64,000 bases of DNA from Sphyrna mokarran (taxonomy: Eukaryota): the NCBI GenBank assembly GCA_024679065.1, contig JAGIQG010000010.1:58094001-58158000 (forward strand), in the 5' to 3' direction. Position numbers and translations under genes: made by a program. Shown here one piece after another: positions 11,649 to 62,260 of this stretch. Numbering within the stretch: the stretch's first letter is position 1; the number at the start of each line of letters is the position of its first letter. The notes under the pieces were generated by a model that was not told the DNA's origin, made no database searches, and worked only from the letters and a program-made list of their open reading frames with translations.

Positions 11649-11791
11649 ACTGTTTGTGCTTTTGCCTTCTGGAGTTAAAGCAGGAGATCAGCAAATTTTC
11701 CCCACATTTTCTCGTAGACTGTCAATGAGAAAATGTGGGGAAAATTTGCTGATCTCCTGCTTTAACTCCAGAAAGCAAAAGCACAAACAGT
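11649..11791. repeat. 143-bp near-perfect palindrome
   Basis: 65-bp arms 11649-11713 and 11727-11791 with one mismatch; the 13-nt centre is itself partly self-complementary. Confidence 0.95.
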
Positions 11792-17984: not shown

Positions 17985-18405
17985 TTGGCTGGAACTTTAT
18001 CACCCCACCTGCCATGGGAATGGAGCGGGTGAGGGGTGGACCATGGAGAGAGAGGGTGGGATTTTATGGTATAAATTTCATGCTGAATTTACATTTGTAG
18101 TAAAATAAACTCAATGACAATTACACTACCCTTCAAGGCAGCATGATACCAACAATACTAAGCCATGGTGCAGTGCCTTGATAACTGCAATGTCCAATAA
18201 AGCAGCCCCATGACAACTTTACTAATGTATAATTTCGTACGAGCAAGGCTGTAAAATTCTACCCATTGGATAGGATCTTACCAGCCATTCATGTCACACT
18301 CCTGCTGCAACGAAGTTGGTGAATTTGGCATCCAGTCAAATCTCCATGCATTGCAATGAGATGGGAAAATCTTTCCAGTGTGAATGGCCGTAACATTCTG
18401 GCCAC
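17985..18405. mobile_element. Two adjacent Harbinger-type MITEs; the first carries a templated insertion
   Basis: Termini ggctggaactttat...gtaaaattctaccc and ggataggatcttac...gtaacattctggcc. Confidence 0.6.
18064..18233 (-). repeat. 170-bp inverted copy of 20873-21042
   Basis: Manual alignment: 165/170 identical, no indels. Confidence 0.95.
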
Positions 18406-20074
18406 TGCTTTATCATCTCATTTGAGGTGTTAACACATTCTTATTTTACTTAAACCTCAAATAAAAAATTAAAGCACCATAAAAGCAATGTTATTCACTT
18501 TTAATAAAATTCCGTTGGATTGCGTGCTAAACCATTGGAGTCCAACAACACTTTTATCCAGAGGATTAAAAAGAATGAACTTAAGTCTCACAGTTTGTAA
18601 GATTGTGCTCCCTTTCTCTCAGAAAAGTGGAAAACAGCTAGTTTAATCCTCCGCATGCTGCTGGTTTTCAATAGACGTCCTCCAGGTGTCAGAATTTGCA
18701 TTTCAGCTGTACAGTTGGACAAATGATTCAACTTATTATAAAAACTCTCAAAGTGCACACTTGCAAAGCGAAAGCAACATTTAAGAAAGAAAAAATTTTT
18801 GCTAAACCATAAGTGTAGATTTTTGAAACGAGGGTTCACTGACCCCAACAGGTTCCTAAAGGGATCCGATGTCATCAGAGATTTTATTATTGAGAATCCT
18901 GACAATATTTTCATAAAAGTTTGGAAACCACTGAGTGAAGCGATGTGTGAGGAGGAAGGAAAATGATACAGCATATATTGAAGAATGGCATGAGGAATAA
19001 AAATGTCCTTTTAGCTTTTTACTTCAATCGTGGGCCAGTACTCAAACTGTTTTCAGACATTATTGCAACATTGCTTCTAACTACAGAATCTCTTAGTTAT
19101 TTCTCAGGCATGTACCACAAGTTGGAGGGGAAGAAAGGAACACCTTTATTCACTACTTGAATAATAAATTACTGACTATGATTCATTATTGACCAGCAAA
19201 ATATAAAGAAAAATGACTTCAAATGCTGTTGTATGACATAAAATAATCCTTAAGCCAAGTGAAGAAAAATGCACCACACAGGACCAATACTGTAGTTCAC
19301 ACTGCAGATGTGCAGTGTTTATATTCTATAAAAAATGTGCAATTCCTCTTGGTTTTTTGAAATAACGTTCAATATCAGTAATATGGAGACTGAAAGCAGT
19401 ATACAATGAAATATTGCATTTGTAAGTTTAAACATAAAGGCATAACTCAAAGTCTCAAGCTAACATCTCAGCAAACACCTTCCAGCTTCTGTAAACATTA
19501 TTCAGCCAACAGAATTATCTGCGATGAAATTCCGATGATACAAACACCAGAGGGTATTTGTGGGCTCCCAAATTCCCCAGCAAATGAAAGGTTATGTTCC
19601 CATATCTACTAATAAATGTAGCTCACCAACGAACCAAAGCTGCACCAGGTGCAGGTCGCCCTGCAGCCAGAACATAACCTTCCCAAGCAAACAGGTCAAA
19701 CTTCAGACCTGTTCCCAGGAGGAAGCATAGGATACAGAACCTGTGCCAATTACCTTTTTTTATCTGCCCCAGAGCAACATTTGTTAAAGTATTGCCCTCT
19801 GTTTAAAATTAAAGCAAGGTCAAGATAGTCAAGCATTGTACAGGGCCTTCCAATTGCAGGCAAGTTCCCCTCTTTTTAAAATGTAAGAGCAATATTATAG
19901 TCTGTTCAGGTCACAAACACAGACTGCAACAGAGTTTACAGGACAGCTAAATACAACTAACTTGGAAATTCACTGCGATGTGTGAAGCAATTCTATAATT
20001 AGTGTAATTTTGATTGTGCGGGTATTGGTTAGTGTAGTACTTGTGGAACTAATCTGTGGCTTAAATTAGTTGCA

Positions 20075-20800
20075 ATGGCACTGCACTATATCAATGTGCA
20101 CTATGTCTGTGTATGGTCATTATGGTGCTGCACTATATCTGTGTGCACTATATCTGTGTGTGGTCATTGTGGTGCTGCACGAGATCTGTGTGAATTTGTT
20201 ATGGTGCTGCACTATATCAGTGTGCACTATGTCTGTGTGTGGTCATTATGGTGCTGCACTATATCTGTGTGTGATCATTGTGGTGCTGCACTATATCTGT
20301 GTATATTTGTTATGGTGCTGTACTATATCAGTGTGCACTATGTCTGTGTGTGGTCATTATGGCATTATGGTGCTGCACTATATCTGTGTATAGTTGTTAT
20401 GGTGCTGTACTAGAATGTGTGTGGTCATTATGGTTCTGCATTATATATGAGTGCAGTTATGGCGCTGCAGTATATTTGTGAATGGTTGTTACCGTTGCTG
20501 CACAATATCAGTGTGCATTATATATGTGTGTGATCATTATGGTGCTGCACTACATTTGTGTGTAGTTTCTATTGTGCTGCACTATTTCTGTGTGTGATCA
20601 TTATGGTGTTGCACTTTATTTGTGTGTAGCTGTTATGGTGCTGCATTATATCAGAATGCAATATATCTGTGTGTGGTCATTATGGTGCTGCATTATATCT
20701 GTGTGTAATTGCTACGGTGCTGCATTATATCTGTGTGTAATTGCTACGGTGCTGCATTATATCTGTGTGTAGTTGCTATGGTGCTTGCACTGTAGCTTTG
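20075..20800 (+). repeat. Minisatellite, ~32-bp unit (tgtggtcattatggtgctgcactatatctgtg) with ~16-bp subunit
   Basis: About 20 imperfect units read directly; decays to about 20940. Confidence 0.95.
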
Positions 20801-20872: not shown

Positions 20873-21042
20873 ATTATACATTAGTAAAGTTGTCATGGGG
20901 CTGCTTTATTGGACATTGCAGTTGTCAAGGCACTGCACCATGGCTTAGTATTGTTGGCATCGTGCTGCCTTGAAGGGTAGTGTAATTGTCATCAAGTTTA
21001 TTTTACTACAAATGTAAATTCAGCATGAAATTTATACCATAA
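20873..21042 (+). repeat. Likely donor of the 170-bp inverted duplication
   Basis: Reverse complement of 18064-18233; continuous with the decayed end of the minisatellite. Confidence 0.9.
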
Positions 21043-36638: not shown

Positions 36639-36930
36639 TGGGCAGCACGGTGACATGATGGTGAGCATTGCTGCCTCACATTGCCAGGGATCCAGATTCA
36701 ATCCCCGGCTTGGGTTACTGTCTATGCGGAGTCTGCATGTTCTACCCATGTCTGTGTGGGTTTCTTCTGGGTGCTCTGGTTTCCTCACACATTCCAAAAG
36801 ATGTGTTGGCCATGCTAAATTCTCCCTCAGTATACCTGAACAGCTGCCAGAGTGTGGTGACTAGGGGATTTTCACAGTAACTTCATTGCAGTGTTAATGT
36901 AAGCCTACTTGTGACACTAATAAATAAATT
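36639..36930 (+). mobile_element. V-SINE with alternative (Rex-like) tail
   Basis: HE1-like head and V-domain, then ctaggggattttcacagtaacttcattgcagtgttaatgtaagcctacttgtgacactaataaa. Confidence 0.9.
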
Positions 36931-38939
36931 TTTAAAAAAACTTTATGCTCATTTCCTCAGTACATCAAGTGTCAAAAAACAAGAAAATGGTTTCTGACTG
37001 TGCTCACCTTCCTTATCCACATCAGAAGCAAATGAAAATAAGAGTTTTCTAGCATAAAGCATTTTCTCTTAAATAGCATTTTAGCTTCAATACAACAGAA
37101 GGACTACTAATGGAGATTTTCTCTTGCAGACTGAAATCCCTTGTGTTGAATACCAGGACGACATTGCTGTGAAATCTCTATCCCTTAATAAAAACGAATA
37201 TCCTCCTGCAAAGTTACTAAAGGAATGATAGCCAAACAAAGCAGGTCCTTTAATCATAATTTCCTGTCCATAAGGTTCTGCAGGACATTCGATGAAAAGA
37301 GTCTTTTATTAGCAACCATTGCTGAATGTCCATAACCTCCAATTTTCAGGATCAATGGGGCAAATAGTTTACAATGGAGGTCAAAGCACCAAAAGCATGA
37401 AAATAAACTCTTCATTTTCTAGTTTCTTCTGCTATTACAAAAATATATTTGCATAACAAATGCAGATGTTCAAATTTATTCATAACCCAGCAAATGGGCC
37501 ATTTAATTTAGTATTCAGCCTATTGTCCAGGGATTTCCAAGCGATGGTTCTTAATTCACTTAAAGCATGTTATCTCTCTTTACCTCATGTTAAAGTGTTT
37601 TTTTGTGAGGGGGAAAATCAATTACACAAGATGCACAGCTGCTCAATGAAACTTTTGGGAAGTGATTCTGGATTCCTTCAGGCTTTTCCCTGACAGGCTC
37701 TGATCACAACATTTCAACATATTCAGTAATTACCAGCTTGATGCTGAACTTGGTTGATTGTTGCTTCCACCTTCCCTCTGCTTAGAGACTTGATTCTGTG
37801 ACAAAAGAACGAGGCTTTTGGGAGAGATCTCAAAGTAAAGCTGTAGCACTGAGTTTATGAATTGCTGATTTATCAACTGTAATGACATTAGTCAGCTAAT
37901 CAAATGGATAATTAGCACATGTTTCAAGATAGCTTATTTTCTATGATTTAAACAAATCGGAAAGCATCGCCCCCCACTCTCATTCTATTGCCCGTTCATA
38001 TCATTATGTATTTGGAAAAGGCGAGATTGTCCATTTATACAGTGTTATCTGCCATTGAAAGTCTGTCACATTTTTTAAAATGCTGATTCTCTTCGAGGGA
38101 ATTCTGAAGTGTGTGTAGTGTATCATCTGGATGTTATACGTCACAATGTTGACTTTAAACTCTTACATGTCCATGCTTAAACTAGAGCATGTATTTTGAT
38201 TTTTAATTCTAAATCTTGATGTAGTAAATTCTATTCCATAATTCAAGTTACCTGGAAGTATCTAGGATAAAGTGATTGCAGGTTATTAAGAGTTTGAATA
38301 GTGGAATAAGATAGGAGAAACTAAAAATATTGGAGATGGGAATTCTTGGAGTTGCTGTGTCAGGATCTGCCAGGGAATATATGAGGTTAGAAAGAGGTTA
38401 CCATTTATCAATTCTGCCATTTGCAATCTCTGCCATTCCAGGCACTTCATTTATGTGCAGAATTTCTGGGCCCTGCAATATTCAGGAATGGAGACAGACT
38501 GGACCCGAAAATGTCCCTGCGTCAGTTTCCCAACCCTGTTCTTGGTGTTGGCCTCTTGGTCCAGCAACATTACCCACCCCCACAAAGCGAGTTCATTAAG
38601 AGCCTTGGTAAGCTGACCAAGATTTTCCAGTCAGCCTCCAGTTTCCAGACACAACAGATAGCAGTAGCCAGGGAGCCAGTGCTGTAGGGTATCTTCCAGA
38701 TTTGCCCAGTCTTCCTTGGTGCAGGAAAAGCCAAAAACTGACCAAAAATGGGATTTCACCAAGTATATTACCAATTTTATCTTGAACCCCCTTAATTTTC
38801 TTTGTAATTGACTATCATTTGGATCTCAAGTCCCTGGTTGAATAACTAAGCATTCTTTTCTGCCCAAATTGCATTAGCAAAGGAAAATTGCAGCTTCAGT
38901 TTCAGAGAGTTTTCTTTTTATTATCTGTTAGAAGAAGAA

Positions 38940-59365: not shown

Positions 59366-59832
59366 GAAATACTTCTTTTTGTCTCGCCAGGTACAGATCT
59401 TTCTTCAAAACTGAAGGACATGCTAGAAGAACTGTACCCACTTCCTTTCATTGTTATTTATATAATTCCTTATTATTACAATCCATTTTCACAGTTGTCA
59501 CTTGTGTCATCCATTAACTATCTCATATCAAATTGAGTCCATTAGAGAAGCTCTCTCCATATCCTGAGCATTGCTTCTAACATTTATGGCAAATTCCCTG
59601 TAAGAAATAGAAATTTAAACCCACATTGTCAGACAAAGCAAACAGCTAGTCCTTAATGTTGTTGTTTATCCAATTGTTTTATTAATCTGTTTTCTTACCC
59701 CTTTCATATGTCTGCTGTAATTATTAAGTTCCCACAGGCATTTCCTACAGCATGTCTGCCTAACTGCTGGAACAGATTGCTTTTTTTGTGTTACTTTCTG
59801 TAAATGTAAATTATTCCATTCCACTAGCATTT

Positions 59833-60340
59833 TGGGCAGCATGGTGGCACAATGGTTGGCACTGCTGCCTCAAAGCACCAGGGACCTGGATTTGATTCCA
59901 GGCTTGGGTCCTGTCTGTGTGGAGTTTGCACGCGTTCTCCTTGTGTCTGCGTGTGTCCCCTCCAGATGCTCCAGTTTCCTCCCACAATCCAAAAGATGTG
60001 CTGGTTAGGTGAATTGGCTATGCTACATTCTCCCTCAGTGTATCTGAACAGGCATCGGAATCTCAAAGGGCTGAGTGATTTACTCCTGTTCCTAGTCTGC
60101 ATATTTATAAAACTGGCACAAAAAAAACATGCAATTTTAAATGCAATTTGCAGTTAATGCAAATTGAGTTTACATAATCTTTTGCATCAGTTTTTAAAAC
60201 GTCATATGACACGCTGGCCCCATCCACAATACTGGCCAGGCCCTCGGGGTCAATTAATTACCATTGGGGGATTTTCACAGTAACTTCATTGCAGTGTTCA
60301 CGTAAGCCTATTTGTGACACTATAGATAAACTTTAAACTT
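59833..60340 (+). mobile_element. V-SINE with Rex-like tail, interrupted by a 211-bp insertion
   Basis: Head and V-domain 59833-60061; tail resumes ggggattttcacagtaac near 60267. Confidence 0.9.
60062..60272 (-). repeat. 211-bp inverted copy of 60840-61051
   Basis: Manual alignment: about 5 substitutions plus one homopolymer indel. Confidence 0.95.
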
Positions 60341-60839
60341 CGCCCTTTCCATAATTTAATTCCACCGTGAAGAGAAAAAAGTCCACTTCTTGCTTTTGAT
60401 ATGATTTCAACTGTTGTCTTTTTTTGATTTTTTAATCACATGCAGGCCACCTCTTACTCAGGATCAAATGTAACCCATGTGAGGAACAAATTCAAACAAT
60501 ATGTGGGAAAGAGTTTCAGCTTTGAGCACAATTGGCAAATCTGGCAAAAATTGTGCCTGAAGTTGTGCAAGGTTTAAAAAATGTAATCCTATCGCTCGAG
60601 TTTCTGCTGATATCCATTTTATTGTCAAATGCCAAATCTGCCGGAGCAATGTTGTTGGGCAGTGTTTTAAAGCAGATTTTTAAAATATATCATCAATTTA
60701 CCATATATTGAAGAGTGGTAACTTGAAGTTTAATTGAAACGGCCAAAAATAGATCTATCACTAAAATAAACATTTTAATCAGTCTCAATCCAGCATCTCT
60801 GATTAACCCAATTAAAAATTACTTGCAAGATATGTATGT

Positions 60840-61051
60840 ATCCCCCAATGGTAATTAATTGACCCTGAGGGCCTGGCCAGTATTGTGGATGGGGCCAGCA
60901 TCTCATATGACATTTTAAAAACTGATGCAAAAGATTATGTAAACTCAATTTGCATTAACTGCAAATTGCATTTAAAATTGCATGTTTTTTTTTGTGCCAG
61001 TTTTATGAATATGCAGACTAGGAACAGGAGTAAATCACTCAGCCCTTTGAG
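60840..61051 (+). repeat. Donor of the 211-bp inverted duplication
   Basis: Spans unique DNA plus the 3' tip of the CR1 that continues past 61051. Confidence 0.9.
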
Positions 61052-62260
61052 TTGCTCCAGCATTGAGTAAGATCAGGGTTGCTCTTATTGTAACCTCAAT
61101 TCCACATTTCCAATGCCTGATAATCTTCCATCCCCTTACATATAAATAACCTATCTAGTTCTGCCTTAAAAATATTTAAAAACTGTGCTTGCACTGCCTT
61201 AAAAATATTCAAAGATTCTGCTTCCACTGTCTTTTGAGGACTAGAATTCCAAAGACTCACAGCCGTCTGGGAGAAAAAAATTCCCCTCAAACCTGTCCCT
61301 TGTGTTTAAACCTCCTAGATCCCACTACGTTACAGAGCTCTGCAATTTTTCAACATTGTCTTTCTTCAGGGTGGCATGGTGGCACAGTGGTTAGCACTGC
61401 TACCTCACACCAACAGGGACCCAGGTTCAATTCCAGTCGCAGGTCACTGCTGCAGAGAGTTTGCACTTTCTCCCCTTGCCTGTGTGGGTTTCCTCAGGGT
61501 GCTTCGGTTTCCTTCCACACTCCAAAGATGTGTGGGTTAGATTGATTGGCCATGTTAAATTGACCCTAGTGATAGGGTAAATGTGTGGAGTTATGGGAAT
61601 AGAGCCTGGGTGGGATTGTAATTAGTACAGACCCAATGGGCCTCCTTCTGTATTGTAGGGATTCTATGATTGAGTTAATATGCTTTCTTAAATTTTCTTG
61701 CCACATTTTCCCACATTATATTCCATTTATCAGATCTTTGCCCGCTCACTTAACCTATCTATATCCATTTGTAGCCTTTTTGTGTACTCTTCGCATCTGA
61801 TTTTCCTTCCTATCTTTGTGTTATCAGCATATTTAGCAAACGTACCTTCGGTCCTTTTATCCAAGTCATTTATTTAAATTGCAATAAGTTGAATCCTCAT
61901 CTCTGATGACTGTGGCACACCACTAACTACCTTTATGCCTATTCTCTGTTTCTTGTTAGCTAGCTAATCCTCTTTCCATAGCAATATTTTATTTCCTACA
62001 TCATGAGCTTTTACTTTCCACAATAATAATGTGGCACCTCTGGTGGAAATCTGAATAAAATAATACATCCAAAGGTTTTCCTTTTTTCACATGTGACTTC
62101 TTTGGAGAACTCCATTAAATTGATTAAGCATGATTTTCCTTTCACGAAACCTTTTGACTTTGATTACACCGAATTATTTTTGAGTGCCCTATTTTTATGG
62201 CTTTTATAAAGCTACTAAATGTTCCCTTGTGAAAGGATTTTAAGCAAAGCAAAGCAGGAG
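61016..62260 (-). mobile_element. CR1 LINE relic split by a SINE
   Basis: ctaggaacaggagt...cagccctttgag tail; tttgtgttatcagcatatttagc reads AKYADNTK on the minus strand. Confidence 0.85.
61368..61670 (+). mobile_element. HE1-like SINE with CR1-type tail
   Basis: ggtggcacagtggttagcactgct...ggttcaattcc...gcctccttctgtattgtagggattctatgatt. Confidence 0.92.

What the first reader, a model, noticed from the sequence alone, without database searches (positions are those of the whole stretch)
60062..61051. 211-bp inverted copy of DNA 570 bp downstream pasted into a SINE, with direction evident
Seen: 60062-60272 is the reverse complement of 60840-61051 (~97%). It splits a SINE, replaces about 10 bp (compare intact gagtgtggtgactagggga at 36850-36868), and rejoins through a 6-nt microhomology ggggat shared by donor and SINE tail. 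The copy includes a unique-DNA/CR1-tail junction whose CR1 continues only at the donor, fixing donor and recipient. It also creates a ~210-bp stem in the pre-mRNA.
Basis: seen in the sequence. Interest (0 to 1): 0.7.

Follow-up and report, generated by a model that had tools for sequence, protein, structure and literature searches.

The report
Inverted DNA-repair patch in shark SINE
A 211-base stretch of an intron was copied backwards into an old jumping-gene remnant 570 bases away, most likely as the ordinary scar of a repaired chromosome break, a known mutation type that this shark-like genome seems to carry in large numbers.

Summary
Observation confirmed. 60062-60272 is the reverse complement of 60840-61051 (5 substitutions, 1 gap) and has no other full-length copy in G000. 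It splits an old SINE, removes about 10 bp, and shares a 6-nt microhomology (GGGGAT) at the right junction; the left junction has none. Direction holds: the SINE is broken at the acceptor, while a CR1-type 3' end runs on only at the donor. The pair lies in a teneurin intron. It fits the 'repair-mediated duplications' of Pace et al. 2009 (PMC2671141) in every feature I could test; a genome-wide reciprocal donor search and the orthologous empty site remain open. It is not rare: a second event sits in this window, and 1.86 Mb of G000 hold 50 local two-copy pairs (median 157 bp). The scan found such scars before, in this genome and in other cartilaginous fish. Public contigs bridged neither the filled nor the empty site, so read proof is missing. 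RNA editing was untestable. The one open point is density: 2 clear unselected repeat-splitting events in about 0.32 testable Mb (about 6/Mb, wide interval) versus 0.62/Mb published for human. Ordinary event, low interest.

The parts
59834..60061 (+). 5' part of an old high-copy SINE, the acceptor (HE1/V-SINE type; name recalled and taken from earlier scan notes, not tested against a library)
   Evidence: 70-81% to other window copies; start marked by loose ends at 59833-59839 in four runs
60062..60272 (-). Inserted inverted copy of 60840-61051 (205 new bases plus the 6-nt microhomology)
   Evidence: only two full-length copies in G000
60267..60272 (+). GGGGAT microhomology shared by the SINE and the donor end; inferred priming site
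60273..60340 (+). SINE 3' tail resuming after the insert; about 10 bp of SINE lost at the site
   Evidence: 90% to 36864-36935; 16 bases between flanks in 35 of 62 intact-copy matches
60840..61051 (+). Donor segment
   Evidence: runs unbroken into both its flanks in contig X1-7 and into the spacer in three other runs
60874..60991 (.). Old low-copy repeat remnant inside the donor
   Evidence: four matches elsewhere at 75-79%
61017..61330 (-). 3' end of a high-copy LINE (CR1 type; label recalled from the decayed ORF2 C-terminal reading). Its first ~35 bp were copied; it continues only at the donor
   Evidence: 2752 candidates, paralogs run across 61051; 5 of 15 sample hits span the donor end, one being the locus itself; minus-strand translation; L007
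30711..30923 (+). Teneurin (Ten_N) exon. The next Ten_N exon is at G000:C2:58166530, so the finding lies in a ~41.6-kb intron of a + strand gene
18064..18233 (-). Second event of the same kind: 170-bp inverted copy of 20873-21042 inside a short repeat element, with about 6 nt (TTATGG) shared at its left junction

Best explanation
This is a single local inverted duplication that splits an old SINE in a teneurin intron, likely made in the germline by microhomology-primed repair of a DNA break and likely neutral. Shown: donor and acceptor, direction, ~10-bp loss, 6-nt microhomology at the donor-side junction, none at the far junction. Inferred steps: (1) a break in the SINE; (2) the bottom-strand 3' end of the right-hand fragment, ending ATCCCC, paired with GGGGAT 570 nt away; (3) about 205 nt were copied; (4) the new end was joined to the left fragment without visible homology. 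For step 2 I favour fold-back on the same resected strand (about 55%) over invasion of the sister or homologous chromatid as in SDSA (about 35%); one scar cannot separate them. The divergence (2.4% between arms, 5.5-7% to other sharks' contigs) suggests it arose after the split from those relatives.
For: Matches the published RD profile (at least 50 bp, inside a TE, donor under 5 kb away, mean 162 bp and max 619 bp, microhomology 2-9 nt, deletion 1-15 nt; PMC2671141). Single donor. Empty-site structure from paralogs. GGGGAT occurs at 2.2e-4 per position locally; my arithmetic puts a 6-nt or longer match at either junction near 0.5%. Other organisms' contigs carry the donor letter at 60200 and 60210 (3 of 3 runs), 60106 (2 of 2 covering) and 60212 (2 of 3), so the insert is the derived copy. 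The geometry (inverted copy, primer repeat wholly on one side of the break) is that of snap-back synthesis (PMC2943611, figure legend passage). Across 11 sampled pairs of at least 90% identity the differences are 47 transitions, 18 transversions and 4 gap columns, a germline-like spectrum.
Against: No contig bridges either junction. In run X1 (0-1 differences to the window in unique DNA) only the donor letters appear over 60065-60259, and the donor contig is unbranched. The acceptor's own SINE body is missing there too, so this is inconclusive, but it is not confirmation. The orthologous empty site was not seen: relatives' contigs stop inside the SINE. The changes that can be polarised all sit on the insert, 3 of 5 fall within 13 nt, and 3 of 5 are CpG in the insert against TpG/CpA in the donor, which a simple neutral clock does not predict; the age may be wrong. 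Snap-back repeats in the cited fly work were scored within 20 bp of the junction, far closer than 570 bp.
Confidence: 0.85

Rival explanations
1. Replication template switch without a break (FoSTeS/MMBIR-type templated insertion): a stalled nascent strand primed on GGGGAT, copied the nearby strand, and returned 10 bp further on.
For: Same product: an inverted, nearby, microhomology-flanked insertion; such events exist as human germline variants (PMC8421209, passages). Clustered changes on the insert would fit mutagenic synthesis.
Against: The return junction shows no microhomology. The cited search defined templates within 100 bp; here it is 567 bp. Largely not separable from the best explanation by sequence alone.
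Confidence: 0.2
2. Assembly or chimeric-read artefact: the inverted copy does not exist in the animal.
For: No public contig shows the insert letters or either junction.
Against: The arms differ by 4 transitions, 1 transversion and 1 gap, not by an indel-rich error pattern. There is a clean 10-bp loss with microhomology. No N gap lies near (nearest about 66 kb away). Sibling events span 68-99.5% identity.
Confidence: 0.04
3. Mobile element or LINE-mediated transduction: the 211 bp moved as an element or through an RNA.
For: The segment holds ~35 bp of a LINE end and an old repeat remnant.
Against: Only two full-length copies; no target-site duplication but a deletion, no poly(A) or repeat tail; the segment straddles a repeat boundary; the donor is 567 bp away.
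Confidence: 0.02
4. A selected RNA structure: the stem regulates teneurin splicing or editing.
For: A stable 211-bp stem is predicted in the sense pre-mRNA.
Against: It lies about 11.5 kb from the next Ten_N exon. There are no compensatory changes: every difference is on one arm. No Rfam match. Similar pairs are scattered through all eight sampled blocks.
Confidence: 0.03

Closest known systems
Repair-mediated duplications (RDs), Pace, Sen, Batzer and Feschotte 2009, PMC2671141 (main text read, parts 1-6 of 8; supplements not opened)
   Same: TE split by a 50+ bp insert with one donor under 5 kb away; size (211 against mean 162, max 619); microhomology (6 against 2-9 nt); deletion (10 against 1-15 nt); no poly(A); direction read from the broken TE.
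   Different: No shark was surveyed ('shark' 0 occurrences). Orientation was not tallied there. The ~35 bp of LINE inside the insert might have tripped their single-copy filter. Density in my sample may be higher.
MMBIR-type templated insertions (MMB-TI), Osia et al. 2021, PMC8421209 (passages read)
   Same: Inverted nearby template, microhomology of 2-12 bp, present as germline variants.
   Different: Their search was limited to templates within 100 bp and inserts up to read length; here 567 bp away, 211 bp long, microhomology at one junction only.
Snap-back SD-MMEJ (polymerase theta linked), Yu and McVey 2010, PMC2943611 (passages read)
   Same: Primer repeat wholly on one side of the break, inverted product, apparently blunt second join possible.
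   Different: Scored there within about 20 bp of the junction and for short inserts; this event is far larger.
'Doublets', Thomas et al. 2004 (not held; known only through its description in PMC2671141)
   Same: Short paired local duplications.
   Different: Described there as mostly under 100 bp and near-identical.

Membership tests
Repair-mediated duplication (Pace 2009) | Insert of at least 50 bp interrupting a TE whose two halves are contiguous in the consensus (within 30 bp) | tested here: met
   211 bp; 15-16 bases between flanks in 46 of 62 intact-copy matches
Repair-mediated duplication (Pace 2009) | One donor elsewhere in the genome | tested here: met
   2 of 7 matches are full length, the rest cover under half. 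The tool skips very common words, and the paper's reciprocal whole-genome BLAST was not run
Repair-mediated duplication (Pace 2009) | Donor 50 bp to 5 kb away on the same chromosome | tested here: met
   567 bp
Repair-mediated duplication (Pace 2009) | Junction hallmarks (microhomology, deletion or filler), no poly(A/T) tail | tested here: met
   6-nt microhomology plus ~10-bp deletion, no tail, no target-site duplication
Repair-mediated duplication (Pace 2009) | Empty orthologous site in an outgroup, or PCR validation | tested here: inconclusive
   contigs of four runs stop inside the SINE
MMB-TI / snap-back SD-MMEJ | Inverted template on one side of the junction, primed by microhomology | tested here: met
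MMB-TI / snap-back SD-MMEJ | Template within 100 bp (MMB-TI search) or about 20 bp (SD-MMEJ scoring) | tested here: not met
   567 bp; thresholds
MMB-TI / snap-back SD-MMEJ | Dependence on a given polymerase or pathway | not testable with these tools
   a fixed scar holds no genetic information on the enzyme
Retrotransposed or transduced insertion | Target-site duplication and 3' tail | tested here: not met

The most novel reading that the evidence does not exclude
This scar is one of tens of thousands: the shark genome carries repair-mediated local duplications at roughly ten times the density published for human (0.62 per Mb of TE) and thirty times zebrafish (0.19), so that break-repair copying is a major mutation type in a lineage with very slow point mutation. 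Basis: 2 clear unselected repeat-splitting events in about 0.32 testable Mb (about 6 per Mb; 95% Poisson range about 0.8-23), 1 weaker and 2 more with part-repeat inserts, and 49 other local two-copy pairs in 1.86 Mb. The pipelines are not matched and the numbers are small.
Probability: 0.3. Interest if true: 0.45.

Novelty: new member of a known kind. Interest (0 to 1): 0.14.

Why it matters
The single event matters little: it is a clean teaching example of a repair scar with donor, acceptor and priming site readable. It would matter more as a marker. If a matched genome-wide count confirmed a much higher density than in mammals and zebrafish, the ratio of break-repair scars to point substitutions could be measured in a lineage with one of the lowest vertebrate mutation rates (7e-10 per base per generation in epaulette shark; PMC10587355, abstract only). 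That bears on claims about genome stability in sharks. The inverted events also seed long intronic RNA stems whose editing could be tested.

Tried and rejected
Read confirmation: contigs of X1, X2, X3, X7 at 85% and X1, X7 at 96% bridged neither the filled nor the empty site. The many 'skip' joints come from paralogous SINE copies and are not evidence. Contig depth (X1 donor contig 16.4 against neighbours 12.9 and 13.8; 67 of 182 donor 31-mers are shared with the insert) is too noisy to use. RNA: no RNA holder listed, so editing and expression were not tested. Rfam: 0 matches at E up to 1 over 59500-62000. Protein-coding role: of 129 stop-to-stop frames of 75 aa or more I scanned 25 against Pfam, none of them over the arms; 1 of 25 gave a match above cut-off, Ten_N. 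An imperfect match at the left junction (SINE majority TGCC(A/G)GAG against donor TGCTGGAG) needs a 2-nt offset and was dropped as unparsimonious. The fold-back geometry is not general: the second event has its microhomology on the junction away from its donor. Orientation bias of 32 inverted to 18 direct is not significant (p 0.065), and inverted pairs may include element termini. Against reading all 50 pairs as RDs: about 21% of random positions are testable for a split repeat (208 of 1000), yet only 4 of 50 pairs passed, the finding included; older events may fail the test, or many pairs are something else. Thomas et al. 2004 is not held. Literature searches for a shark survey of such duplications (word count in PMC2671141) listed none; listings only, subscription journals not covered, and the supplements of PMC2671141 were not opened.

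Full report
1. Observation. Self-comparison of the window gives one inverted pair here: 60062-60272 against 60840-61051, 97.17% over 212 columns, 567 nt apart. The six differences are five substitutions (60106, 60200, 60210, 60212, 60246) and one A fewer in an A run. In the own genome G000 (2.77 Gb; window = C2:58094001-58158000) only these two places match over the full length. Four other places match 63-104 bp of the middle at 75-79% and one matches 35 bp of the end. So the segment is two-copy, but not wholly 'unique DNA'.

2. Acceptor and donor. The left arm sits inside a high-copy SINE (59834 to about 60340). In 1.86 Mb of G000, 62 matches join its two flanks in intact copies; 35 have 16 bases between them and 11 have 15. 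The last six of those bases are GGGGAT by per-position majority over 38 copies, and the donor ends in the same six. The event therefore lost about 10 bp and has a 6-nt microhomology on the right and none on the left. At the donor, a high-copy repeat begins near 61017 and runs on past 61051 in its paralogs; on the minus strand it reads like a decayed LINE ORF2 end (the CR1 label is recalled). The insert holds only its first ~35 bp. Ten_N exons at C2:58124711 and C2:58166530 on the + strand place the pair in a ~41.6-kb teneurin intron. The shark assignment rests on the recalled SINE type and on earlier scan notes, not on a call that names the organism.

3. Other runs. One run holds 80% of the words, 19 others 6-11%. 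Contigs of X2, X3 and X7 cover both SINE flanks and the donor at 5.5-7% divergence in the spacer (21 of 338, 36 of 514, 30 of 543) and carry the donor letter at 60200 and 60210 (3 of 3), 60106 (2 of 2) and 60212 (2 of 3). All contigs stop inside the SINE. In X1 only donor letters are seen and the donor contig is unbranched, but the acceptor's own SINE body is absent as well. This neither confirms nor refutes the insert. Artefact is unlikely on other grounds: the mutation spectrum is substitution-rich and the junctions are tidy.

4. How common. I sampled eight blocks: 464 kb around and including the window and seven arbitrary 200-kb blocks. After dropping tandem arrays and pairs more than 35% covered by dispersed repeats, 64 same-block pairs of 50 bp or more remained: 50 within 5 kb (41 within 2 kb) and 14 beyond. 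The 50 have median length 157 bp, median distance 834 bp, 32 inverted and 18 direct; 8 are 95% identical or more; 33 lie in the seven arbitrary blocks. Four of the 50 split a repeat with intact paralogs: this one, two clear others and one weak. A looser filter gave two more with part-repeat inserts, one with microhomology at its right junction. A second event lies in this window at 18064-18233, two-copy in the genome, inside a short repeat, with about 6 nt shared at one junction. Testable repeat DNA is 169 of 1000 random positions with three or more paralogs, about 0.32 Mb. Two clear unselected events give about 6 per Mb, 95% range about 0.8-23. The published figures are 0.62 (human) and 0.19 (zebrafish) per Mb of TE. 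The pipelines differ, so this is a lead only.

5. Mechanism. The microhomology lies at the junction facing the donor, and the copy is inverted. The simplest path (inferred): a break in the SINE; the right fragment's bottom-strand 3' end (ATCCCC) pairs with GGGGAT on the same strand 570 nt inward; about 205 nt are copied; the new end joins the left fragment with loss of about 10 bp. Invasion of a sister or homologous chromatid (SDSA, as Pace et al. propose) or a replication template switch gives the same product. The concentration of changes on the insert could reflect error-prone synthesis or a different allele as template; five changes cannot decide this.

6. Known classes. Pace et al. 2009 (PMC2671141; parts 1-6 of 8 read) found 824 such events in human by the same logic of interrupted TEs: donor under 5 kb, mean 162 bp, microhomology 2-9 nt, deletion 1-15 nt. 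This event meets each feature tested; the orthologous empty site is untested. It works like MMB-TI and snap-back SD-MMEJ (passages) but exceeds their distance limits. Earlier notes of this scan report similar scars in this genome and in other cartilaginous fish; I found the paper first and did not check those loci.

7. Function. The stem folds in silico, but there is no compensatory change, no Rfam match and no nearby known exon, and two further 97-99% inverted pairs lie within the same gene's introns. Neutral is the best reading.

8. Verdict. Real in the assembly, correctly described, a new member of a known class. Interest 0.14. The genome-wide density is the only part worth a follow-up.

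Noticed in passing
window 18064-18233 and 20873-21042: Second 170-bp, 97% inverted local copy, two-copy in G000, inserted in a short repeat element with about 6 nt (TTATGG) shared at the left junction.
   Followed up: partly
window 11649-11791: A 143-bp near-perfect palindrome (95% to its own reverse complement), with no other copy in the 1.86-Mb sample.
   Followed up: no
G000:C2:57933412-57934802 (L031-L032): Compound event: one segment present three times within 1.4 kb, and two of the copies share a flank in inverted orientation.
   Followed up: partly
G000:C2:58255321-58256367 (L017): A 212-bp direct local copy, 99.5% identical, 624 bp apart; very young, a candidate polymorphism.
   Followed up: no
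G000:C2:58050185-58050853 (L043): A 129-bp inverted pair, 99.2% identical, 411 bp apart, in another intron of the same teneurin gene.
   Followed up: no
window 60200-60246: 3 of the 5 substitutions between the arms are CpG in the insert against TpG/CpA in the donor, while other organisms mostly carry the donor letter; unexplained.
   Followed up: partly
window 61161-61226: A 33-bp tandem duplication inside the LINE end next to the donor.
   Followed up: no
window 20052-20785: A degenerate tandem array directly beside the donor of the second event.
   Followed up: no
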